A stretch of 64,000 bases of DNA from a virus (lineage: Duplodnaviria; Caudoviricetes), in IMG/VR virus record IMGVR_UViG_3300006217_000025, positions 14,347-78,346 of that record; one strand, 5' to 3'. The notes under the pieces are model-generated. The model was not told the origin of the DNA. It saw only the letters and a list, made by a program, of their open reading frames with translations, and made no database searches. The position numbers and the translations under genes are program-made. Shown here in pieces: positions 37,717-48,364 of this stretch (within the stretch, counting starts at the first letter, position 1; the number at the start of each line of letters is the position of its first letter).

Positions 37717-38217
37717 ATGAAAGCAATTAATATCAAATGGAATGTTGACTGTGAAAAGGATTTGGAAACATTACCAATTGAAATTGAAATACCTAGGGCG
37801 ATGACTGATGATGACGTAATATCTGATTATATTTCTGATGTAACAGGATTTTGTCATTGTGGATATGAGATAGTAGAAACAAATAAAGTTCAACAGTTAT
37901 TAGATAGAATTGAAGAATTAGGTTGGAATGTAATAAATGAAGAAGATGACTGTTATTCATTATCTCAATTTTCACCAGCAGAGCAAGATTTTAATGTTCA
38001 TATTAGAGCGGAAAATTCTGATGAATTAATACAATCGATCTATGAAGCATATGAAAATTATGATGTTAGTTATGAAACATATTTATGGTTAGATAGTACA
38101 GGTCACGGTACAAATGGCGCCCCATATGAATTAGATGATGTGTTAAAAGATATGAAATGGTGTGAAAATGCTATTTTGGAATTGTACAAAACTTTGATTA
38201 ATGAAGGGAAGAGATAG
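37717..38217 (+). CDS. Hypothetical protein
   Basis: AAGGAG SD. Confidence 0.55.
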   Translation: MKAINIKWNVDCEKDLETLPIEIEIPRAMTDDDVISDYISDVTGFCHCGYEIVETNKVQQLLDRIEELGWNVINEEDDCYSLSQFSPAEQDFNVHIRAENSDELIQSIYEAYENYDVSYETYLWLDSTGHGTNGAPYELDDVLKDMKWCENAILELYKTLINEGKR

Positions 38218-38219
38218 GA

Positions 38220-38486
38220 ATGAAACAAATAACATATCTTGTTATAGTTGAAGAAGATAAAAGACAATCAATTTTAAATTCAAAAATGGCACTAATTAGA
38301 GATTGGAATATGGGTTGGTTCGAAGTCCCACAAATATTTATTGAAGAATTTAAAAAAAATTTTGGTATAACTGGATTTGAGTGCGGAGTATGTAGAGAAA
38401 ATATAACAAAAGAAGAAATCAATTATTTTAACCAAATTAGATGGCATGAAGGAAGTAATATAATGAATGAATCCGATGAAGAATAA
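38220..38486 (+). CDS. Hypothetical protein
   Basis: Coupled ORF. Confidence 0.5.
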   Translation: MKQITYLVIVEEDKRQSILNSKMALIRDWNMGWFEVPQIFIEEFKKNFGITGFECGVCRENITKEEINYFNQIRWHEGSNIMNESDEE

Positions 38487-38518
38487 TTTGAGGAAATGTT
38501 AGAAAATTTACTTCATAA

Positions 38519-38740
38519 AAGAATGTCAATAAATATTTATATGAAGGTGAGTTTTGCTAGGCTTCATCAGCTTTGGGAACTATAAATGTAGAATCTGATT
38601 TACAAGGACTCAATAAATTCATATTAGATGCGATCAGAGCTTGCGATACAGGTAAATTAAAGATTGGAGGTCTTGATAGTGTGAATGATTTACCTGATAG
38701 AACAATTCTTAGAGGAAAGGGGCGAAACGTAAAGAGATAA
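38519..38740 (+). pseudogene. Remnant of the C-terminal part of a second reverse transcriptase
   Basis: Translates KYLYEGEFC*ASSALGTINVESDLQGLNKFILDAIRACDTGKLKIGGL...LPDRTILRGKGRNV, collinear with the C-terminus of 41784-43082. Confidence 0.85.
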
Positions 38741-38773
38741 GACAGGGCATAGTGCTTAAGTAATAATTTAAAA

Positions 38774-39022
38774 ATGAGTCCAGTTGTGTTTGAAGTAACA
38801 GTAAGAAACATGAAAGGTGATTATATTATGTTTACAAGAAAATTTAAAAATATTCATGATGATGAAGTATGGACTTTAGAAGAATTAAGACAATTAAGAA
38901 ACGATCATAAAAAACAAGGAATTGATGTGTATGATAGTTTTGATAAATGGATGAGCGTTCAATTATGCATGGATTTTGTAGAAATTTATAATAATTCAAT
39001 GGAACAAAATATGAAAGGATGA
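38774..39022 (+). CDS. Hypothetical protein
   Basis: 82 aa; true start possibly the internal ATG after GAAAGGTG. Confidence 0.45.
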   Translation: MSPVVFEVTVRNMKGDYIMFTRKFKNIHDDEVWTLEELRQLRNDHKKQGIDVYDSFDKWMSVQLCMDFVEIYNNSMEQNMKG

Positions 39023-39405
39023 TGATTATGAAAAGAGAATTGAAAGGTCTTGATGATGTTGTAATAAGATTAAATGATGGACTTGAAAGAACTTCAGAAG
39101 AATTAGAGGTGTGCAAAAAATGATTGTTTAAATTTGGACTAGCTAATTACATGAGTTTAAAATAGTTAGATGATATGTGTTTGAAGATTCTGTTTGGGTG
39201 TTTAAGCAAATATTTGGATAAAAATTAGAAAAGATAAAAGGATGATATATATGCTAATTTTGATTCTAAGTGTGAAGTATTTGTGATTGATGAATGTGCG
39301 GCTTGGGACTAGGAAGAAGTGCAAGAAAAAAATAAAAAGGTTGAAGAGATTTTCAAAAAAAGAAAATTTAAAAGAATATATTAAAAGAAATATGAAAGGG
39401 TAAAG

Positions 39406-39828
39406 GTGAATAAAATGGCGAATTATAATTGCGTAATTAGGACAAATTATTTTCATGTGAAAAACAATACTATGTTCGAAGATTTTATGAAAACTGTTTA
39501 TGGTGAAGATGAAGTTTTTATGTTCAAAAAAGGTGATATGTATGGATTTGGATGTTATGGGGAAATTATGGGTATAAGAAATCCTGAGGATGAAAACGAA
39601 GATGAATATGATTCTCCATATGATGCATTCATCGATGGGCTACAAAAATATGTAACTGACAATGACGCAGTGATTATTATGGAATTTGGTAATGAAAAAT
39701 TAAGACATATATCAGGTACCGTCGGTGTTATTACAAGTAAAAAAGTTAAATATATGGACACAACAGATTTAGCAATGGATATTGCAAAAAAATTGTTGAA
39801 CAATAAAAATTATGAAACTCAGTTTTAG
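39406..39828 (+). CDS. Hypothetical protein
   Basis: MANY....RTNYF.V motif common in Firmicutes phages. Confidence 0.6.
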   Translation: MNKMANYNCVIRTNYFHVKNNTMFEDFMKTVYGEDEVFMFKKGDMYGFGCYGEIMGIRNPEDENEDEYDSPYDAFIDGLQKYVTDNDAVIIMEFGNEKLRHISGTVGVITSKKVKYMDTTDLAMDIAKKLLNNKNYETQF

Positions 39829-39945
39829 ATGCTGTATATTGATTCTTAGAGGAATTCTATAATTTATGTGATAGATATAGGGCCTAGATTGATGCAAACT
39901 ATTAAAATTGAGACTCAAATAGCTTAATACTAGGATGGAGGCAAT

Positions 39946-40344
39946 ATGACATTAGATGAGTATGATAAAAAAATAAACTCTTATATAAAACAATTATCAT
40001 CTCTATATGGAGATGAATGGGAAAAGCTTTATGAAGAAATTTCACAATTACAAAAAGATTATATGAAAAGTGTATTAATAGAATATGAGAAAGAAGTTAA
40101 TTGTAAAGCAAAAGAATGTATTTATAATTTATTGCAATATGCAATTGAATGGAGTGAAAGTGGAAATTCAATTGTTAACGTTGATTCAAAAGAAATTGCT
40201 GATGAAGTTGAAGAGATTATATGGGAAGAAATTGGTGTTTATTTGTTAGACTGTGAAATATATAAAGAAGATAATCATTGGTCTATTGATTGTATGTTTG
40301 CTGGCAATTATGTTCCATATTGGGATGGCTGGAAAGACGAATAA
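39946..40344 (+). CDS. Hypothetical protein
   Basis: GGAGG SD. Confidence 0.6.
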   Translation: MTLDEYDKKINSYIKQLSSLYGDEWEKLYEEISQLQKDYMKSVLIEYEKEVNCKAKECIYNLLQYAIEWSESGNSIVNVDSKEIADEVEEIIWEEIGVYLLDCEIYKEDNHWSIDCMFAGNYVPYWDGWKDE

Positions 40345-40412
40345 TTATAAAAAGGATAATAGTAAAATGAAAGACTTAAAAGAATATAGTAATAGGAAGG
40401 TTAAGAAAGCAA

Positions 40413-40703
40413 ATGAAAGAGCTTAATATAAAAATGTATGAAGAAGAAATTGGTGAAGAGTGGATTGTAATGAATGTCCCCGGTAACGTTTCTGATAGTG
40501 AAATTGCATATGCTGTACACATGGCTAGTAAATATGCTTGGATTGACGAAGATGATATTAAAGAAAATTATGATGAGTTGTTTGATGATATGCTTAAATT
40601 AAAACAAGAAAACAATGGACAGTATGTATTCATGTCATATTTAAAAATGACAATTGGTGCAAAATTTAAAAAAGGAAAATATGATTTTGAAATTGAATGG
40701 TAG
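40413..40703 (+). CDS. Hypothetical protein
   Basis: Co-directional ORF. Confidence 0.55.
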   Translation: MKELNIKMYEEEIGEEWIVMNVPGNVSDSEIAYAVHMASKYAWIDEDDIKENYDELFDDMLKLKQENNGQYVFMSYLKMTIGAKFKKGKYDFEIEW

Positions 40704-40721
40704 AAAGGTTGGGTTAAGAAT

Positions 40722-41030
40722 ATGAAAAACTTAAACACTATGGATACATTTGGAAATGGTTTTAGAATTGAAAGAGATGGGAAAATATTTACATTAACAG
40801 AAGAAGAAATGAGCGATTTCAGATATTTAGATCAAGCGACTACAGGAAGGTGTTGCTTAGAATTCTATAGTTGTAACGATGATGAAAAAGAAATTATTGA
40901 TAAAATGATGAAAGATGAAGAAGTCTGCTACAACATTGAAGATGATGTTTTATCTTTTATTTTTGAAGATTGTGAAAAAATTGAAAGGATTGTTATTAAA
41001 GATTATATTAAAAATTTTAATACGAATTAG
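40722..41030 (+). CDS. Hypothetical protein
   Basis: Co-directional ORF. Confidence 0.55.
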   Translation: MKNLNTMDTFGNGFRIERDGKIFTLTEEEMSDFRYLDQATTGRCCLEFYSCNDDEKEIIDKMMKDEEVCYNIEDDVLSFIFEDCEKIERIVIKDYIKNFNTN

Positions 41031-41045
41031 ACTACGCGTATTAAG

Positions 41046-41372
41046 ATGAATAAAAGAGGGGAAATTATGGATTTAGAAAAACTGAAAGATTGTTATAGGA
41101 GACTGGATAAAGCATTAGAATTTGATGGTGATTTTCAAGACATGTACGATAATTTATCGGGGATCGTTTTAGATGTTATGAATGATTTGTTAATTGTAAT
41201 TAGGAGTGGAAATGATGAAGTTTCACCTAAATTAACTAGAAAAGAAAAAAAGATGGTTAAAAAGGCTTTAGATTATTATGGGGATAGCCTTGCAGATACA
41301 ATAGGATACAGTGCTGGTGAAAAATATTGGGATTTAATAAATAAATTTCAAAATAAGAGAAAGGATGCATAA
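41046..41372 (+). CDS. Hypothetical protein
   Basis: Co-directional ORF; true start probably the ATG after GAGGGG. Confidence 0.5.
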   Translation: MNKRGEIMDLEKLKDCYRRLDKALEFDGDFQDMYDNLSGIVLDVMNDLLIVIRSGNDEVSPKLTRKEKKMVKKALDYYGDSLADTIGYSAGEKYWDLINKFQNKRKDA

Positions 41373-41802
41373 AATGAGTTATAAAGTTGTGTGTACAGGC
41401 GATAGTGTTAAATGGTTTGATCACTATCAAGATAGTGTTAATTATGTCAAAAAAGAGGTAACAAAGGAAGTAATAGAACTATATGAAAATGATGAAATTG
41501 ATAAATATGGGGTGCAAGATATTTTATTTGACTTATATACATATATATATCATACACGAGGATTTATACATCCGAGTTTAAGAAATGAGTACGAGATCGT
41601 GGAATATAAAATAAAAGAAGCAAATAACTTAGAGTTTATTGGACAGATTATTGATATTTTTGAAGACTTTTTAGAAAAGAGAGGAATTCATATTCACAAT
41701 GTCGAACAAGACAAAGATGTCGCCCTTATTTATGGAGAAGATTATTTTGAATTAGAAGATAGCCTGAAAGATATGCTCAAAAATTGGGTGGTTATTGTAT
41801 AG
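41365..41802 (+). CDS. Hypothetical protein
   Basis: Coupled ORF directly upstream of the RT. Confidence 0.55.
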   Translation: MHKMSYKVVCTGDSVKWFDHYQDSVNYVKKEVTKEVIELYENDEIDKYGVQDILFDLYTYIYHTRGFIHPSLRNEYEIVEYKIKEANNLEFIGQIIDIFEDFLEKRGIHIHNVEQDKDVALIYGEDYFELEDSLKDMLKNWVVIV

Positions 41803-43082
41803 AAGTGGATATTTTAATAAAAAAGATGTTTGAATATGAACGTTGGAAAGAGTTACTTGAAATTGCTTCTGAAAAAGAGTTAGATAAGGATTTAATTATC
41901 AAATTTATGAAACCAGATGAACGAAAGAAATTGGCTTATATTATTGCTTCGGATAGTTATACTATTGCTCCCCCACATATCGCTTTTATCCCAAAAGACG
42001 ATGGCACTATGAGAGAAGTATATGTAAACGAAGATTTAGATAGGATAGTATTAACTTTAATAAATAATGTTCTTTGCGAAATTTTTAAAAATAAAATTCA
42101 TCCTAAATGTGTATCATATCAAAAAGGATTAGGGACACAAATGGTAGTTGAACAAATTTCAAGAGAAATTACTCAAATGGGTATTGATAATCCTCATATA
42201 GAGCGCTGTGGTTATAAAAGTGATTTTTCTAAGTATTTTGATAATGTGTCTTTAAAAGCTATTGACAGGGTATTTAATGAGTGTGAACGGGGACTAGGTT
42301 ATGAGTATAATAAGCATCCCGTTTTTAATTTGTTGCGGAGATATTATCATCAGGATTTATATTTTAATAAAGATGGGAAATTGGGCAATAGATATCAAGG
42401 GCTCAAACAAGGGTGTGCAGTGGCTAGTTTTCTAGCAAATGTCGTTTTGTATGAATTAGATGAATTTATGTCAAACAAATATAGGATTTATTATAGATAT
42501 AGTGATGATTTAGTTGCAATCGACAAAAATACTGATGATGTTATTGATGATATCAATCGAGTTATTTGTAAATATGGCGTTACATTGAATCCTAAAAAAG
42601 TAGAACCAATCTACAAAGATGAATGGTTTAAGTTTTTAGGATTCATGATCAAAGGTAGCCAAATCACTTTATCTAAAAAACGCATCAAGAATTTTGAAAA
42701 GGAAATTAGAAAAAGAAGCGTTGATAAACGAAAATGCTCTGAAAGTAAGGCTAGATATCTAATCATGAAGTATTTATATGAAGGCGAACGGGCATGGGCA
42801 ATGAGTTGTTTGAGTTGTATTAACGTTGAATCTGATATAGCTGAAATGAATAAGTTTATTATGGATTGCATTAAGGCATGTAAAACCGGAAAGAAAAGAA
42901 TAGGGGGACTAGGAGTTGCTTATAATCTACCTGATAAAACAATTATAAGAGGCAAGGGGAAGCATGTTACCTCAAATAAGGTTAACAATGGGTATATTGA
43001 AAGATATTTGAGTGTACAGTGTCTTAGAAAAGATTTAAAGTACAATAGAGACTTATTCGATATTGTACTTAAAGGACTATAA
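41784..43082 (+). CDS. Reverse transcriptase (phage-type unknown group, UG27-like)
   Basis: IPKDDG..R, DFSKYFD, GLKQG, YRYSDD and FLGF motifs; true start probably GTG 41805. Confidence 0.9.
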   Translation: MGGYCIEVDILIKKMFEYERWKELLEIASEKELDKDLIIKFMKPDERKKLAYIIASDSYTIAPPHIAFIPKDDGTMREVYVNEDLDRIVLTLINNVLCEIFKNKIHPKCVSYQKGLGTQMVVEQISREITQMGIDNPHIERCGYKSDFSKYFDNVSLKAIDRVFNECERGLGYEYNKHPVFNLLRRYYHQDLYFNKDGKLGNRYQGLKQGCAVASFLANVVLYELDEFMSNKYRIYYRYSDDLVAIDKNTDDVIDDINRVICKYGVTLNPKKVEPIYKDEWFKFLGFMIKGSQITLSKKRIKNFEKEIRKRSVDKRKCSESKARYLIMKYLYEGERAWAMSCLSCINVESDIAEMNKFIMDCIKACKTGKKRIGGLGVAYNLPDKTIIRGKGKHVTSNKVNNGYIERYLSVQCLRKDLKYNRDLFDIVLKGL

Positions 43083-43108
43083 GATAAAGAAAAAGTTGAG
43101 GTGAAACT

Positions 43109-43357
43109 ATGAAGTTATATTTAATTTTAGTTGGTGGTGATTATATTAGGGATTCTCAAATTTATACAGGGGAAAACATTGATGGGGACATTTATGATGA
43201 TGATTCAACATGGAAAGATTTTTGTCCTACTCATGTTGTTGGCGTTGTATATGCTTCTACATATGAGAATTCAATTAAAAGATTTTTAGAATTATGCAGT
43301 GACTATGAAGAGTTTATGCTATCTGCATACGAAATTTCAAATGAGGTAATCTTATGA
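43109..43357 (+). CDS. Hypothetical protein
   Basis: GAGGTG SD, directly after the RT. Confidence 0.55.
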   Translation: MKLYLILVGGDYIRDSQIYTGENIDGDIYDDDSTWKDFCPTHVVGVVYASTYENSIKRFLELCSDYEEFMLSAYEISNEVIL

Positions 43358-43788
43358 CAATTTATGGACGATTGATTGAGGCAGGCCAATGTGGCTTGCC
43401 TTTTTATGTGGATTTTAAAAAGAAGAACTTGTTTGTTAACAAAAAATGTTTAATTAAACATGGGGTGGTTTTGGAAGATGAAGATATCATGGATGACAAA
43501 GACTTGATACAAATTTATGAGAATCCACTTGATTATGTCAAAATTCTATATGAAAACTTCAAAAATTCTTGGGGAGATAACAGAAGTAAATACTTTATTG
43601 CAAAGGACAGTAAAGAAATGTCATTTGAAGCGATTATAGAGGCTTGTAGTGGAAGTTTAGCTAAAGCTAGACTTGAGGGTTTTGTTTTATTAACTATTCT
43701 CACAGGAGAATTTAAGTGGGAATGGGGAAATAAATGGTTCTACCAAGATGATGGGGGACTTATTTTACTAAAAGAATGGTTTTATTAA
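43354..43788 (+). CDS. Probable RT-associated small protein
   Basis: F.VDF.K...KYF.A...A.ARLEGF...W..G.KWFYQ...L..LKEW pattern; I recall it beside this RT class, unverified. Confidence 0.55.
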   Translation: MTIYGRLIEAGQCGLPFYVDFKKKNLFVNKKCLIKHGVVLEDEDIMDDKDLIQIYENPLDYVKILYENFKNSWGDNRSKYFIAKDSKEMSFEAIIEACSGSLAKARLEGFVLLTILTGEFKWEWGNKWFYQDDGGLILLKEWFY

Positions 43789-43807
43789 AAAAGAGGAGGA
43801 AAATATT

Positions 43808-44506
43808 ATGAAAAAGAAAACGGCAGAAAGAATCGTGGAGTTGGTAAAGAATGGTGTAGATGTCAAAAAATTCAATGCATTAACAGATGAATTGACAATC
43901 GGTTTATCCACATCTAGAAATTTATTAAAGGTAAGGGAAGTAGAGATTGATGAGAGAAAAATTATTACTCTCGATACACCAAATATTGATATCGCAATTA
44001 AGACATTGAAAGCATTTAGTTATCAAGGCTATGATGCAGATACAGGAAAACATGAATTAGGATTTAATAGCTGGCTAAAGAATGAGGTATCATTTGCTAG
44101 TTTTATTTTTATGTTTCATAAACTGCATAAATGTGAAAGTCCCAATATTTCCTATTTAGCAGAGCAATGCTTAATGAATTTTAAACAAACTTATACAGTG
44201 GAGGCATTAAGAAGAATAAAAAAAATCGGGGTAGTAAAATTAGGTAAAATTAATCATGCTAATAAGCAAGATGTTGAAACAAGAATTTATGGGATGTTTG
44301 AAAGAATATATGAAGGTTATTATACAAGTGGTTTCTTTGAATATAAAAATGAAGCATGGAGAGATATTTGTAAATTATATTATGGATATTATACATATAC
44401 ATTTTTAAAGGAATATTTTCCGGAAAAACTAAATGGATTAGAAATTGATAGTGAAGAAGTAGAAGTAGCATATTTCTATATTCAACAATTAGAAAAAATT
44501 ATCTAA
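43808..44506 (+). CDS. Hypothetical protein
   Basis: GAGGAGG SD; 232 aa between RT and ncRNA candidate. Confidence 0.6.
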   Translation: MKKKTAERIVELVKNGVDVKKFNALTDELTIGLSTSRNLLKVREVEIDERKIITLDTPNIDIAIKTLKAFSYQGYDADTGKHELGFNSWLKNEVSFASFIFMFHKLHKCESPNISYLAEQCLMNFKQTYTVEALRRIKKIGVVKLGKINHANKQDVETRIYGMFERIYEGYYTSGFFEYKNEAWRDICKLYYGYYTYTFLKEYFPEKLNGLEIDSEEVEVAYFYIQQLEKII

Positions 44507-44530
44507 GTTTTTTTTGCTTTGTGTTGGGCT

Positions 44531-44712
44531 TGAATATAAGGTTTTACAAATGATAAGAGGCTCCGCCTCTTATCACACCCTTCTGGATATAAGGAGGATT
44601 GTGACCAGAAGACAGCAGGACGACAGGAGTCGCAGCTGCCTCGGGCGGTTCGGATTCTTACAGAATCCTCACAATATCTTAAAGAAAAACACCAGGTAAA
44701 ACATTATATTTA
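44531..44712 (+). ncRNA. Candidate RT-associated structured RNA
   Basis: Terminal inverted repeat 44533-44547/44696-44710 (14 of 15 pairs), 11-bp hairpin 44551-44575, further GC-rich hairpins. Confidence 0.65.
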
Positions 44713-44736
44713 TTAAAATTTGAAAGGAGCAAGATT

Positions 44737-45384
44737 ATGGTTAATTCGGTTTCAGAATTTCGGAAGAGAATAGGGGTACATATTACCACAAGGCATAATG
44801 GTAAAATGGAAGGGATGCACTCTTTGAGTACAAGTTGTTTAAAAAACAATTTCTGTAAAGAACGCTCAAAAAACAAAGCCTCTATTTGCTCACATTGTTA
44901 CGCTAGTAGGCTATTGAAAATGTATAAAAATACAGAATATTGTTTAAGCAAGAACACCGACATTCTAACAAAAAAAGTGCTAATCGAAGAAGAATTACCA
45001 ATATTAAATGTTTTATACTTTAGATTAGAAGCATTTGGAGATTTAATCAATACAATGCAAGTATTGAATTATTTTAACCTATGCAATAAGAATCCTCAAA
45101 CAAGATTTGCAATTTGGACTAAAAATCCACAGTTAATTGAACAAACTATTCATCAAGGACACCGAAAACCTCAAAATTTAAATGTGGTTTTGAGTAGTCC
45201 TTTTTTAAATAAAGAGATAAAGAATAAATATGATTTTGTTGATGTTATTTTTACAGTGTATGACAAAGAAACAATTGACAAAGAGAAAATTTTAATCAAT
45301 TGTGGTGACAAGAAATGTTTAGAATGTCTGAAATGTTATAAAAAGCATGAAGACTTAATTTATATAAATGAAAAAATTAAATAA
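44737..45384 (+). CDS. Cys-rich phage protein (GP88-like, radical-SAM-like Cys motif)
   Basis: SC...NFC...ICSHCYA, R..AFGDL, WTKN and C...KCLECLKCY motifs. Confidence 0.6.
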   Translation: MVNSVSEFRKRIGVHITTRHNGKMEGMHSLSTSCLKNNFCKERSKNKASICSHCYASRLLKMYKNTEYCLSKNTDILTKKVLIEEELPILNVLYFRLEAFGDLINTMQVLNYFNLCNKNPQTRFAIWTKNPQLIEQTIHQGHRKPQNLNVVLSSPFLNKEIKNKYDFVDVIFTVYDKETIDKEKILINCGDKKCLECLKCYKKHEDLIYINEKIK

Positions 45385-45397
45385 AGGAGGGCTAAAT

Positions 45398-45919
45398 ATG
45401 AAAAAAACACTTGAACAATTAATTTCAGAGGTTAAACAAGATATGTCAATTGCTTTGTTGCCATTTGATGATGCAGTTCCTATCGTATTGAACCCTAGGT
45501 TAACCCGAGTTTTAGGAAGAGCAAAACATAGAGGAGAAAAAAATATTGTAGTTGAAATTGCGAAGAATGTCTATGAATTAGCCGATGAACAAACAATTAA
45601 AAATGTTATTTGCCATGAATTATTACATACAGCTTTTCCTTTAGACGGGCATTTAGGACAGTGGAAATTTTATGCGAATAAAGCAAATATCTTAATGCCA
45701 AAATATAATATTACGAGATGTAATACAGATAAAGAATTATATAAAAGAAGGCACAAATGGTATAAGGTAAAGTGCTTAAAATGTGGAGAAACATGGGAAA
45801 CACACAACAAGACCTGTGTCAAGTATCCAGAAAGATACTATCATGTAACATGTGGTGGGAATTTAACAATATTAGATGAGAAGGGAAAACAAAATGACAA
45901 ACGAGGAAAGAGTAAATAA
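45398..45919 (+). CDS. SprT-like zinc metalloprotease
   Basis: HELLH motif, H...W, C-terminal CxxC; GGAGG SD before ATG 45398. Confidence 0.7.
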   Translation: MKKTLEQLISEVKQDMSIALLPFDDAVPIVLNPRLTRVLGRAKHRGEKNIVVEIAKNVYELADEQTIKNVICHELLHTAFPLDGHLGQWKFYANKANILMPKYNITRCNTDKELYKRRHKWYKVKCLKCGETWETHNKTCVKYPERYYHVTCGGNLTILDEKGKQNDKRGKSK

Positions 45920-46568
45920 ATTTAGAAACGAAAAAATCGCAGTAAACTGCAAAACAGAGGAAGAAGCAAAATCATTTATAGAGTGGTGCTATGAAAATGG
46001 AATTGAATGGGGGATTCCAGAGTTAGATGAAACACATTCAACTTGCTTTCGTTATTATAGGAATGAAACATGTTATGCCTTTGGTTTTGATGGAGACATA
46101 CACTTGGGATATGGCTCTAAACATTTTCACGAAGAAGAAGGCTATGAAGTCATAACATACAAAGACTTCATGAAAGAAAAGAAAATGACTAATTTAGAAT
46201 ATTATGTTTCAAAAGGTTTAATCAACGAAGGTGCTATGTTATGTGTTGGCGCTCATATTTGCAAATACGATGGTAAGTGTCATGATAAAGAGTGTTATAA
46301 ATGCGAATTTAATAATGATGTAAATTTATGTGTTAAAACATTGCTTGAAGAATACAAAAAGCCTATCAAATTAACAAGGTTTGAGTTTGATTACCTAGAT
46401 GTTTTGAGAGAATACAATAATCCAAACGATGAATTTAGTATATATTTCTGTGATTGCGTAAAAAAAAGCAAAGGATATTTTAAAGGCATTACAGATACAT
46501 CTATGACAATTCAAGAAATCTTAGATAATTGTGAAATTGTGGTTGATGATTATGATTTTGGAGAGTAA
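45894..46568 (+). CDS. Two-module hypothetical phage protein
   Basis: GAGAAGGGA SD; internal MTNLEYY at 46185 looks like a second gene start. Confidence 0.55.
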   Translation: MTNEERVNKFRNEKIAVNCKTEEEAKSFIEWCYENGIEWGIPELDETHSTCFRYYRNETCYAFGFDGDIHLGYGSKHFHEEEGYEVITYKDFMKEKKMTNLEYYVSKGLINEGAMLCVGAHICKYDGKCHDKECYKCEFNNDVNLCVKTLLEEYKKPIKLTRFEFDYLDVLREYNNPNDEFSIYFCDCVKKSKGYFKGITDTSMTIQEILDNCEIVVDDYDFGE

Positions 46569-46581
46569 AGGAAAATGAATA

Positions 46582-46920
46582 ATGAAAATGGAAAATAAAA
46601 TTTATAGCCAATGGGCATTTACTGAAAACGAAAGAGAAAAAGCAAGAATTAATAGAGAAATTTATAATGAATTAAAAACAAAATATAGAGTTTATAGACA
46701 CGATTTAAAACAAGATTTAAAAGATAAAGTAGATGTAAACTTTGATGAATATGATGTAGTTATCGGTAGAAGTGCTTGCTATCTTCATGGAGAATATACA
46801 GTATATAAAAATGCACCAAAATTAAGTGATGATGAGTTAGCATTGTTATGTGATAGTGGAAATTTATGTTTTGGGTATAAAAAAAGTGGTGTTAATGAAT
46901 TTTATGTATATGAAGATTAG
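46582..46920 (+). CDS. Hypothetical protein
   Basis: ELAL.CD.GNLCFGY motif. Confidence 0.55.
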   Translation: MKMENKIYSQWAFTENEREKARINREIYNELKTKYRVYRHDLKQDLKDKVDVNFDEYDVVIGRSACYLHGEYTVYKNAPKLSDDELALLCDSGNLCFGYKKSGVNEFYVYED

Positions 46921-46934
46921 AGGAGTGATGAAGA

Positions 46935-47159
46935 ATGACAATTTTATTAGCAAATGGTGAATTTGCATATATCACTGATATTTGTAATTGTGAGGATTGC
47001 AAAGCAAGAGGGGAAGTAGAATTTATAGTTGTTGATGAAAATCATGAACTCTTAGATTACCTTAAATATCATGAGTTGAAAGATAAATCAATTGTTAGTC
47101 ATTACAATCCAAAAGATTTATGTGAGTTGTTTCATAGAAAGTTGATTGGAAAGGTGTGA
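46935..47159 (+). CDS. Hypothetical protein
   Basis: CxCxxC; GAGGAG SD. Confidence 0.55.
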   Translation: MTILLANGEFAYITDICNCEDCKARGEVEFIVVDENHELLDYLKYHELKDKSIVSHYNPKDLCELFHRKLIGKV

Positions 47160-47166
47160 GTGAAGA

Positions 47167-47448
47167 GTGAATAGTGCAGAATTTAAACATTTCAAACTTC
47201 ATGCAGACAGTACGCTAAAAAGCATGACAAAAGATGAATTGGTTAGTTATATTCATATGTTATATCACAATTGGGGTGTTGTTGATGAGAGATTGTGTAA
47301 TGGTATTGATTATAGTCGCAAACTTGATAAAGCACTAGATAAAGCGTGTGAAGAATTAGTAAGGGCTTATCCATGCGGTGTCAATAGGTGTAATACTAAT
47401 TGTCATAAAGAAAGTTGGGAAGAGTGGTTGATGAAAAATGACTATTGA
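47167..47448 (+). CDS. Hypothetical protein
   Basis: GTG start, coupled to the next gene. Confidence 0.55.
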   Translation: MNSAEFKHFKLHADSTLKSMTKDELVSYIHMLYHNWGVVDERLCNGIDYSRKLDKALDKACEELVRAYPCGVNRCNTNCHKESWEEWLMKNDY

Positions 47449-48364
47449 TGTGCTTGATAACGAGCTAATTCTGTTTGATCGATTAAATGTCATTAGAGAT
47501 GTTGTTGAAAAATATAGTGAAGACAAATTCTATATCTCTTTCAGCGGGGGCAAGGACAGTACGGTACTTCATTATTTATTTGATGAAGCATTGCCAAACA
47601 ATACAATACCTAGAGTATATTGTGATACGGGTATTGAGTACAACGATATAAAAGAATTTGTTTATGAACTGTCTAAAAATGATGATAGGTTCATCATTTT
47701 GAAGCCTAGTCAGAATGTGAAAGCCATGCTTGAAAAACATGGTTATCCATTCAAAAGTAAAGAACATAGCCATATTTTAGCGGTCTACCAAAATAGTGGT
47801 AAAACCAAAACGGTGGATAAATATTTATCAGGAATAAGGATAAAGAACGGAAAAGAAACTGAAACCTCGTTTAAGTGTCCTAAAATTCTTGCTTATCAAT
47901 TTAACCAGGATTTCAAAATTAAAGTTAGCGATAAGTGTTGTAAGAGATTTAAAAAAGAGCCATTTAAAAGCTATGAAAAGCAGAGTGGCAGAAACATCTA
48001 TATAACAGGAATGCGGAAATCAGAGGGCGGATATAGAAACAACATAAATTGCATCGTTTATGACAATGACAAGCAAGTTAAAAAATTCCACCCTTTATCA
48101 AACGTTAATGACGAATGGGAAGATTGGTACATTCAAAAAAGAGGCATACAACTTTGCAAGCTGTATTATCCACCGTTCAATTTTAAAAGAACGGGGTGCA
48201 AGGGCTGTCCGTTTTCATTAAACCTACAAGAACAATTAGAAGTAATGGCAAGGTTATTACCGAATGAAAGAAAACAATGCGAAATGATATGGAAACCGAT
48301 TTATACGGAGTACAGAAGACTTGGCTATAGACTTGCTGAAAATGAGCAAATAAAAATTTTTTAG
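47438..48364 (+). CDS. PAPS reductase-family protein
   Basis: SFSGGKDS, DTG.E, KCC and RTGCKGCPF motifs. Confidence 0.85.
   Translation: MTIDVLDNELILFDRLNVIRDVVEKYSEDKFYISFSGGKDSTVLHYLFDEALPNNTIPRVYCDTGIEYNDIKEFVYELSKNDDRFIILKPSQNVKAMLEKHGYPFKSKEHSHILAVYQNSGKTKTVDKYLSGIRIKNGKETETSFKCPKILAYQFNQDFKIKVSDKCCKRFKKEPFKSYEKQSGRNIYITGMRKSEGGYRNNINCIVYDNDKQVKKFHPLSNVNDEWEDWYIQKRGIQLCKLYYPPFNFKRTGCKGCPFSLNLQEQLEVMARLLPNERKQCEMIWKPIYTEYRRLGYRLAENEQIKIF

What the first reader, a model, noticed from the sequence alone, without database searches (positions are those of the whole stretch)
41784..45384. Phage-type reverse transcriptase operon with an inverted-repeat-bounded, GC-rich ncRNA candidate
An intact RT (YSDD) lacks the retron NAXXH/VTG motifs and shows no DGR TR/VR pair or group II intron flanks. 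It is followed by three ORFs, a 180-nt structured intergenic unit and a Cys-rich GP88-like gene. I recall this layout from phage-borne unknown-group RTs (UG27-like) of largely unknown function; this assignment is unverified. Inference: a multi-component phage system making defined ssDNA from the ncRNA.
Basis: partly seen in the sequence, partly recalled or inferred. Interest (0 to 1): 0.75.

Follow-up and report, generated by a model that had tools for sequence, protein, structure and literature searches.

The report
Atypical phage UG27 reverse-transcriptase system
A mouse-gut phage carries the already published UG27 reverse-transcriptase system, which copies a folded RNA into short single-stranded DNA of unknown purpose; this copy is a stripped-down, atypical version with one odd RNA unit and an almost unrecognisable helper gene.

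Summary
There is an intact YSDD reverse transcriptase (RT), three ORFs after it, a 178-nt inverted-repeat-closed, GC-enriched structured unit (44533-44710), and then a Cys-rich GP88-like gene.

The RT matches PADLOC RT_UG27 at E 2e-156, and ORF 43354-43788 is the UG27 small accessory protein (RTas346). UG27 was catalogued in 2022 (PMC9226505). A September 2026 preprint (10.64898/2026.09.22.753630) showed that five other UG27 systems make short RT-dependent hairpin cDNAs from ncRNA units. So the "defined ssDNA from the ncRNA" idea is published biology, though untested for this locus. This scan has also reported UG27 loci many times on other DNA (148 notes, at least 65 genomes).

Four things are unusual here:
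- There is one RNA unit instead of an array.
- That unit has a five-hairpin, roughly 130-nt centre and an AUC-N1-UAAAG motif instead of AUC-N7-UANAG. A covariance model I built, which finds 136 canonical units, does not find it.
- The ORF in the large-helper position (o232) keeps only about 30 N-terminal residues of the bORF family. It has no other relative among 1.84 billion representatives.
- An orphan 82-aa ORF is inserted between the RT and the small helper.

GP88 and SprT are neighbours, not components. The biological role is unknown.

The parts
41365..41802 (+). 145-aa acidic ORF (up145) ending 3 nt before the RT GTG start. It is a possible extra accessory gene, and its membership is uncertain.
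   Evidence: There are no Pfam, PHROG or PADLOC hits. Homologues (E about 1e-36) sit between the RT and the sORF in about 30 near-identical loci of one other UG27 clade, which counts as one further lineage. Only 3 proteins were found in the 5.8-billion collection.
41805..43082 (+). UG27 reverse transcriptase (425 aa from GTG 41805; a TTG at 41784 would give 432 aa). The YSDD catalytic motif is at 42498-42509.
   Evidence: PADLOC RT_UG27 at 2.2e-156. There are 2178 relatives at E<=1e-30, the nearest non-self being 63% identical. It carries every invariant column of a 20-sequence UG27 alignment. Of 26 listed differences from a roughly 97%-identical variant phage, 20 are at third codon positions.
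43109..43357 (+). Orphan 82-aa acidic ORF (o82) inserted between the RT and the small accessory gene.
   Evidence: No family hit and no homologue in about 130 UG27 loci. Other close-clade loci such as L133 also carry unrelated inserted ORFs between the RT and the rest of the system.
43354..43788 (+). UG27 small accessory protein (sORF; cluster 346 / RTas346).
   Evidence: PADLOC RTas346 at 1.4e-21, matched full length. Homologues lie next to the RT in most UG27 loci. The invariant S72, F81, L107, E108 and W142 are kept.
43808..44506 (+). 232-aa ORF (o232) in the position of the large accessory protein (bORF; cluster 337). Only its N-terminal ~30 aa are recognisably bORF-like.
   Evidence: The bORF profile's only match in the whole 78-kb record is window 43799-43891 (15 bits, E 6.9e-4, profile positions 2-32). 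There is a weak colinear C-terminal KxxxWxDxxK..YYT match. The whole-protein score is 7.7 bits, reached by 6 of 2000 shuffles. Close-clade bORFs score 181-250 bits. No relative except itself appears among 1.84 billion representatives.
44533..44710 (+). Single structured ncRNA unit and candidate RT template. Its features are:
- closing helix 44533-44547 / 44696-44710
- hairpins at 44551-44575, 44580-44611 and 44652-44668, plus two short GC hairpins between them
- a possible pseudoknot between ATTGTGA (44598-44604) and TCACAAT (44669-44675)
- AUC at 44676-44678
- UAAAGAAAAACACC at 44680-44693
   Evidence: Fold z = -6.5. The 3' sub-motif PWM, built from 77 canonical units, scores 11.0 bits, rank 8 of 127,970 positions. 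It lies 2 nt before the 3' strand of the closing helix, on the RT strand. The unit is not found by covariance model R2, which finds 136 canonical units, nor by nhmmer on the whole 3' block. Its centre differs by many indels in variant phages.
44737..45384 (+). Cys-rich GP88-like gene. It is a conserved neighbour, not a component.
   Evidence: Pfam PF17338 at 1.8e-11. It is present near UG27 in 16 loci only, at varying positions. It also occurs in phage records that did not appear in the RT search.
45368..45919 (+). SprT-like metalloprotease gene, a neighbour.
   Evidence: Pfam SprT-like at 6e-10. It is syntenic with GP88 in L131 and L132 only.
38453..38740 (+). Relic of the C-terminal part of a second UG27 RT gene, broken by stop codons.
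   Evidence: Six-frame match to RT residues 295-389 at E 2.6e-23 with 6 stops inside. A 55-aa open remnant is 58% identical to RT residues 343-395.

Best explanation
This is a UG27 system (class 2 UG/Abi reverse transcriptase) in the early or middle gene block of a mouse-gut tailed phage.

Inferred mechanism, by analogy with the five UG27 systems tested in the 2026 preprint:
- The RT, the small helper (43354-43788) and probably o232 (43808-44506) act together on the plus-strand transcript of 44533-44710.
- Synthesis would start near the AUC at 44676-44678, in the long single-stranded 3' segment.
- It would copy the multi-hairpin centre towards the UUUA at 44543-44546.
- The product would be a roughly 130-136-nt minus-sense structured ssDNA. 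That is longer and more branched than the published 50-100-nt hairpins.

What is shown here: family membership of the RT and sORF, the presence, position and strand-consistent partial motifs of the RNA unit, and purifying selection on the RT.

What is inferred: that this unit is the template, the cDNA boundaries, and that o232 replaces the canonical large helper.

What the ssDNA does is unknown for the whole family. My guess, with low confidence, is that it acts as a structured decoy or ligand in phage-host or phage-phage conflict. I base this on expression from a phage early region and on the fast-changing template centres.
For: RT and small helper:
- The RT matches RT_UG27 at 2.2e-156 and the sORF matches RTas346 at 1.4e-21.
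- The RT keeps all family-invariant residues including YSDD.
- 20 of 26 listed substitutions against a variant phage fall at third codon positions.

Published biology of the family:
- PMC9226505 describes RT + cluster 346 + cluster 337 + ncRNA in gut phages.
- 10.64898/2026.09.22.753630 reports RT-dependent cDNAs that start at AUC and end after UUYA, with all three proteins required.

The RNA unit:
- It lies on the RT strand directly after the last system ORF and directly before GP88. The last units of the syntenic relative L131, whose RT is 59% identical, occupy the same position.
- It has a two-tier closing helix, a long single-stranded 3' segment and an AAGG after the outer 5' strand. This resembles the consensus of model R2.
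- Its UAAAG-AA-AAACACC motif ranks 8 of 127,970 positions on a PWM from 77 canonical units.
- L001 (Gemmiger, RT 52% identical) has a comparable single unit with three predicted hairpins.

o232:
- It is the only bORF-profile match in the 78-kb record.
Against: - The unit is not detected by my covariance model R2, even with filters off at E<=10 over 12 kb. R2 finds 136 units in UG27 loci, including close relatives.
- The AUC-to-UANAG spacer is 1 nt, not 7 (and read from the sequence). The UGAG of the 3' closing region is absent.
- nhmmer with the full 3' block gives only 0.3 bits.
- o232 matches the bORF profile at 7.7 bits where relatives score above 180. The preprint reports that deleting either helper abolishes cDNA synthesis.
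- No RNA or cDNA data exist for this locus. The laid runs are contigs only and cannot show transcripts or ssDNA.
- The record is about 50% complete, so a canonical helper or an array could lie elsewhere.
Confidence: 0.72

Rival explanations
1. This is a decaying UG27 locus. The large helper has been lost or overwritten, leaving only its first ~30 codons. The array has collapsed to one degenerate unit. The system no longer makes cDNA, although the RT and sORF are still intact.
For: - o232 scores 7.7 bits against 181-250 bits for relatives.
- There is a single unit with a non-canonical spacer, and the covariance model misses it.
- A broken second RT gene 3 kb upstream shows that UG27 genes do decay in this phage.
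- The preprint reports that both helpers are required.
Against: - RT differences from a variant phage are mostly synonymous-position changes (20 of 26).
- The sORF is intact with its invariant residues.
- All ORFs are tightly spaced, each with a Shine-Dalgarno-like stretch upstream.
- The unit is strongly structured (z = -6.5).
- The locus persists in mouse-gut samples of at least 8 studies.
Confidence: 0.18
2. The structured element is unrelated to the RT. It could be a 5' leader, a processing site, a small RNA or a protein-binding site serving the downstream GP88-SprT genes, or a replication or packaging signal.
For: - It lies immediately upstream of GP88.
- It folds equally well on both strands.
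- It fails the canonical UG27 RNA model.
Against: - It has no terminator-like U tract, and no promoter signal above chance.
- No Rfam family matches.
- UG27 units occupy the same bORF-to-GP88 gap in L131.
- The strand-specific 3' motif sits at the expected distance from the closing helix.
Confidence: 0.08
3. The RT belongs to a retron, a diversity-generating retroelement or a group II intron.
For: There are generic RT-domain hits to those models.
Against: - All such hits are far below the family cutoffs: TIGR04416 at 95 bits against 300, retron St85 at 48 bits against 235, and retron RT at 35 bits or less in PADLOC.
- There is no NAxxH or VTG motif.
- No group II intron or retron RNA is found by Rfam.
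- I saw no TR/VR repeat pair.
Confidence: 0.02

Closest known systems
UG27 systems of gut phages (class 2 UG/Abi RTs): Mestre et al. 2022, NAR, PMC9226505; ncRNA arrays and cDNA products in bioRxiv 10.64898/2026.09.22.753630
   Same: - The RT family and the small accessory protein family match.
- All genes are on one strand in a phage.
- A structured, GC-enriched ncRNA lies beside the genes on the RT strand.
- The unit has a closing helix, a long single-stranded 3' segment and a UANAG-N2-AYRYRCC-like motif.
- Other ORFs are inserted in the locus, as in relatives.
   Different: - There is one unit instead of an array. From the preprint's totals (82,314 units in 14,118 loci) I calculate a mean of about 6 per locus.
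- The centre is five short hairpins (about 129 nt) rather than one long hairpin.
- The AUC-UANAG spacer is 1 nt instead of 7.
- The UGAG and the canonical UUYA loop context are missing.
- The large accessory protein is recognisable only in its first ~30 residues.
- An extra orphan 82-aa ORF is present.
UG27 locus L001 (Gemmiger formicilis assembly, contig CAVDWX010000093.1)
   Same: - The order is RT-sORF-...-GP88.
- It has a single unit of about 200 nt with three hairpins.
- That unit has a two-tier closing helix and a UAUAG-GAACAUAUC motif next to the 3' strand.
- It lacks AUC at the canonical distance.
- Model R2 misses it too.
   Different: - L001 keeps a canonical bORF (243 aa, the seed of my bORF profile).
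- Its unit lies between the sORF and the bORF.
- Its RT is only 52% identical.
DRT2 (UG2) and DRT9 (UG28), defence RTs with a single upstream ncRNA template
   Same: They are class 2 UG RTs that use one dedicated structured ncRNA as template (as described).
   Different: - They are host defence systems with no helper proteins of these families.
- They make concatemeric or homopolymeric cDNA.
- The RT here scores only 48-77 bits on those models.
Retrons (msr-msd RNA closed by a1/a2 inverted repeats)
   Same: An RT is paired with an inverted-repeat-closed structured RNA that is partly copied into ssDNA.
   Different: - The retron RT motifs NAxxH and VTG are absent.
- Retron HMM scores are low.
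- No Rfam retron RNA is found.
- The accessory proteins are different.

Membership tests
UG27 system (RT + cluster 346 + cluster 337 + ncRNA) | The RT belongs to the UG27 clade of class 2 UG/Abi RTs. | tested here: met
   PADLOC RT_UG27 scores 519 bits (E 2.2e-156), matched full length (9-430 of the protein, 3-418 of a 420-position profile). The next model, UG26, scores 113 bits.
UG27 system (RT + cluster 346 + cluster 337 + ncRNA) | The RT catalytic YxDD (YSDD) and the family-invariant residues are intact. | tested here: met
   YSDD is at residues 232-235. The query carries all invariant columns of alignment A1.
UG27 system (RT + cluster 346 + cluster 337 + ncRNA) | A small accessory protein (sORF, cluster 346) lies adjacent. 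| tested here: met
   RTas346 at 1.4e-21, residues 2-143 against profile positions 2-144 of 147. It aligns with 23 locus-derived homologues.
UG27 system (RT + cluster 337 + cluster 346 + ncRNA) | A large accessory protein (bORF, cluster 337) lies adjacent. | tested here: inconclusive
   - Only the N-terminal ~30 aa of o232 match my bORF profile (15 bits, E 6.9e-4, the sole match in the record).
- The whole protein scores 7.7 bits with an empirical p of about 0.003. hhalign probability is 8%.
- Relatives score 181-250 bits.
- The record is about 50% complete.
UG27 ncRNA unit (as described in 10.64898/2026.09.22.753630) | AUC-N7-UANAG motif on the 3' side of the central hairpin. | tested here: not met
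   The exact pattern is absent from the intergenic region. The unit has AUC-N1-UAAAG at 44676-44684. Relatives L131 and L135 have AUU-N7-UA[AU]AG.
UG27 ncRNA unit (as described in 10.64898/2026.09.22.753630) | Overall sequence and structure match to a covariance model of canonical units. | tested here: not met
   My own models R1 and R2 were seeded on 25 units and rebuilt on 47. R2 finds 136 plus-strand units in UG27 loci but nothing at 44533-44710, even with filters off at E<=10. The authors' models are not in Rfam 15 and could not be run.
UG27 ncRNA unit (as described in 10.64898/2026.09.22.753630) | A main hairpin closed by a basal helix, with an asymmetric internal loop bracketing the template, on the RT strand beside the UG27 genes. 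| tested here: met
   - The closing helix has 14 Watson-Crick pairs over 15 positions (MFE fold: 16 pairs around one unpaired position on each strand). There are 4 nt unpaired on the 5' side and 27 nt on the 3' side.
- The position matches L131.
- The 3' sub-motif PWM ranks 8 of 127,970 positions.
UG27 ncRNA unit (as described in 10.64898/2026.09.22.753630) | A single long central hairpin as template; units arranged in arrays of about 135-167 nt each. | tested here: not met
   The centre folds into five short hairpins over about 129 nt. The unit is 178 nt and stands alone.
UG27 ncRNA unit (as described in 10.64898/2026.09.22.753630) | RT-dependent cDNA is made from the unit. | not testable with these tools
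   Only assembled contigs of public runs were available.
Retron | Retron-type RT (NAxxH, VTG) and an msr-msd RNA. | tested here: not met
   Neither motif is present. Retron HMMs score 48 bits or less, well below cutoff. There is no Rfam hit.
Group II intron | RT/maturase above the family cutoff and intron RNA domains. | tested here: not met
   TIGR04416 scores 95.5 bits against a cutoff of 300. No group II intron RNA is found in 38000-48000.

The most novel reading that the evidence does not exclude
This locus, together with L001-type loci, may represent a distinct sub-architecture of UG27. In it, a single long multi-hairpin RNA is copied into a ssDNA of about 130 nt. A helper protein retains only the family's N-terminal docking segment and carries an unrelated body. 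The template centre is the fastest-changing part of the phage between co-circulating strains. If so, the ssDNA sequence or shape would be under diversifying pressure from a host or rival-phage target.
Probability: 0.15. Interest if true: 0.55.

Novelty: new variant of a known kind. Interest (0 to 1): 0.3.

Why it matters
UG27 is abundant in gut phages, its biochemical output is known, and its biological role is not. A minimal natural version is a convenient test case for three questions: which RNA features and which part of the large helper the RT really needs, how start and stop sites are chosen when the AUC-N7-UANAG spacing is broken, and whether template centres evolve under conflict. This locus offers one unit and a helper reduced to a conserved N-terminal segment. 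Beyond that, it is one more instance of a published system that this scan has already met in dozens of genomes.

Tried and rejected
- Complex prediction (RT alignment + sORF alignment + o232 as partner) returned no verdict: score 0.00, partner pLDDT under 50. It is not evidence either way.
I could not fetch the contigs of the nearest RT relatives (61-63% identical).
- o232: an exhaustive phmmer against 1.84 billion representatives found only itself. The ESM Atlas gave no usable hit and a poor model. jackhmmer among all locus ORFs found nothing.
- o82: no relatives among the locus ORFs.
- RNAalifold on MAFFT alignments of canonical units gave no consensus. I therefore set the covariance-model structure from per-sequence folds.
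- nhmmer with the whole 3' block was not significant in the window.
- I searched for a consistent pairing partner of the N7 spacer in canonical units, to compare with the ATTGTGA/TCACAAT pairing here. There was no clear peak.
- The other PWM or helix candidates in the window (29097, 31667, 34211, 48819, 51170 and others) lie in coding sequence and lack the unit's architecture.
- MITE or dispersed-repeat idea: the closing-repeat sequences have no exact match in viral or genome collections.
- Public runs were Logan contigs only. They show presence in mouse-gut samples and sequence variants, but no transcript ends, strand or ssDNA. RNA-library contigs covering the locus are not proof of transcription.
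- The promoter and terminator scan gave counts at chance level.

Full report
**Observation**

The window is the right-hand 64 kb of a 78,346-bp IMG/VR virus record, rated about 50% complete. From about 25 kb onward all genes run on the plus strand. The stretch in question contains these features:
- An RT ORF at 41784/41805-43082, with Pfam RVT_1 at 1.6e-18. YSDD is at 42498-42509 and there is no NAxxH or VTG motif.
- Three tightly packed ORFs of 82, 144 and 232 aa, each with a purine-rich Shine-Dalgarno-like stretch upstream.
- A 230-nt intergenic region.
- A GP88-like gene with 10 Cys, followed by an SprT-like gene.

The intergenic region holds a 178-nt unit at 44533-44710:
- A 15-position inverted repeat with 14 Watson-Crick pairs closes it.
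- Five inner hairpins are predicted.
- A 27-nt single-stranded 3' segment is left.
- MFE is -62 kcal/mol and z is -6.5.
- GC is 43-51% against about 30% for the phage.

**Identity of the proteins**

- The RT is a full-length UG27 RT. PADLOC RT_UG27 scores 519 bits (E 2.2e-156), and the next model, UG26, scores 113 bits. Retron, Drt and group II intron models are far below their cutoffs.
- ORF 43354-43788 is the UG27 small accessory protein (RTas346, 1.4e-21).
- The RT family is large, with 2178 proteins at E<=1e-30. The nearest non-self relatives are about 63% identical.
- In about 130 related loci fetched from viral, genome and metagenome collections, sORF homologues accompany the RT almost everywhere.

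**What is known about UG27**

- Mestre et al. 2022 (PMC9226505) defined UG27 as a class 2 UG/Abi RT found mainly in gut phages. It has two associated protein clusters (346 and 337) and a putative ncRNA, and it shows no enrichment in defence islands.
- A September 2026 preprint (10.64898/2026.09.22.753630) described arrays of roughly 135-167-nt ncRNA units.
- It showed for five systems that short 50-100-nt RT-dependent cDNAs start at the AUC of an AUC-N7-UANAG motif and end after a UUYA motif.
- It also showed that both accessory proteins are required. The biological role was left open.
- This scan has met UG27 loci on other DNA many times (148 notes in at least 65 genomes). One of those notes describes an orphan gene in place of the large helper.

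**The large helper**

- I seeded a bORF profile from the ORF after the sORF in L001. It recovers 243-430-aa homologues in most loci. In the closest RT clade (56-60% identity; L131-L136) they score 181-250 bits.
- In this phage the only match in the whole 78-kb record is the first ~30 residues of o232 (window 43799-43891, 15 bits, E 6.9e-4).
- The whole protein scores 7.7 bits, and 6 of 2000 shuffles reach that score.
- There is a weak colinear C-terminal motif (K..W.D..K....YYT).
- o232 has no other relative among 1.84 billion representative proteins.
- I read o232 as a bORF derivative that keeps the family's N-terminal segment on an otherwise unrecognisable body, at about 65% confidence. A lost helper is the alternative.
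- The 82-aa ORF between the RT and the sORF is an orphan. Inserted unrelated ORFs are common in this clade.
- The 145-aa ORF just upstream of the RT has homologues inside the UG27 loci of one other clade. This is suggestive, but it amounts to only two lineages.

**The RNA unit: what fits canonical UG27 units**

Canonical units are easy to see in relatives. The AUC-N7-UANAG motif recurs every 125-175 nt on the RT strand. The nearest clade uses AUU-N7-UA[AU]AG. The unit here shares the following with them:
- The strand.
- The position. It lies after the last system gene and directly before GP88, as do the last units of the syntenic L131.
- A two-tier closing helix with AAGG after the outer 5' strand, comparable to the R2 consensus.
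- A long unpaired 3' segment.
- A UAAAG-AA-AAACACC motif 2 nt before the 3' closing strand. On a PWM from 77 canonical units this ranks 8th of 127,970 window positions, or about 0.03 expected in the intergenic region.

**The RNA unit: what does not fit**

- The AUC-UAAAG spacer is 1 nt.
- The 3' UGAG is missing.
- The centre is five short hairpins spanning about 129 nt rather than one long hairpin.
- nhmmer on the whole 3' block gives only 0.3 bits.
- A covariance model I built from 25 units and rebuilt from 47 finds 136 plus-strand units across UG27 loci. It does not report this unit even with filters off.
- That model also misses the units of L001 and L135. L001's single three-hairpin unit resembles this one.
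- The preprint itself notes clades whose units escape its models.

The unit works-like and sits-like a UG27 template, but it fails my membership test for the canonical RNA family.

**Evidence that the locus is maintained**

- Near-identical phages occur in mouse-gut samples of at least 8 studies.
- Against a roughly 97%-identical variant, 20 of 26 listed RT differences are at third codon positions.
- In that variant the ncRNA centre (44582-44622) carries a dense cluster of small deletions (10 listed there, table 4).
- Another run's contigs break at 44599/44606. The template centre is therefore the most variable spot of the locus between strains.
- These are contigs, so nothing can be said about transcripts or ssDNA.

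**Neighbours**

- GP88-like genes flank UG27 in 16 loci at varying positions.
- They also occur in phage records that did not appear in the RT search of the same collection.
- SprT is syntenic only in L131 and L132.
- Both are neighbours, not components.
- A stop-riddled relic of a second UG27 RT C-terminus lies at 38453-38740.

**Verdict**

It is here in an atypical minimal form: a single non-canonical unit, a nearly orphan large helper and an extra ORF.

The most likely mechanism is RT, sORF and o232 copying the unit's centre into a structured ssDNA of about 130 nt. This is inferred by analogy and is untested.

The main rival, at about 0.18, is that the locus is decaying and inactive.

Tools that failed or were closed are listed under Tried and rejected.

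Noticed in passing
window 38453-38740 (+): A relic of the C-terminal (thumb) part of a second, divergent UG27 RT gene lies 3 kb upstream of the intact one. It is 48-58% identical to RT residues 295-395 and is interrupted by 6 stop codons. No paralogues of the other system genes lie beside it.
   Followed up: yes
window 44580-44625 (centre of the ncRNA unit): In public mouse-gut runs the otherwise ~97-100% identical phage variants differ here by a dense cluster of small indels (10 listed in X15/X17). One run's contigs break at 44599/44606 (X2). This is the most variable spot in the 5 kb that were laid.
   Followed up: partly
window 41365-41802 (+): A 145-aa acidic ORF is translationally coupled to the RT start. 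Its homologues lie between the ncRNA array and the sORF in about 30 near-identical UG27 loci of another clade (L046-L106). It could be a fourth, clade-restricted accessory gene.
   Followed up: partly
L131:7282-8013 (+) and window 44737-45384 (+): Cys-rich ORFs recur in or beside UG27 loci. One is a 243-aa ORF with clustered Cys residues between the sORF and the bORF in L131. The other is the GP88-like gene, which has N-terminal and C-terminal Cys clusters. No function is known.
   Followed up: no
PQ571274.1 (Bacteroides phage BS-TP1) 79357-80610: This is the only named cultured phage in the INPHARED copy with a UG27 RT homologue (42% identity). The gene is annotated there as 'tail protein', which is probably a misannotation.
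   Followed up: no
window 47438-48364 (+): A PAPS-reductase-like gene (phrog_424, 4e-31) lies between the UG27 block and the late genes.
   Followed up: no
central hairpins of canonical units, e.g. L126, L117, L133: The apical loops of many canonical UG27 template hairpins share a YUAUC-like loop sequence (for example GGTTATCCCCAG and GAGTTATCTCTCGA). The unit in this window does not have it.
   Followed up: no
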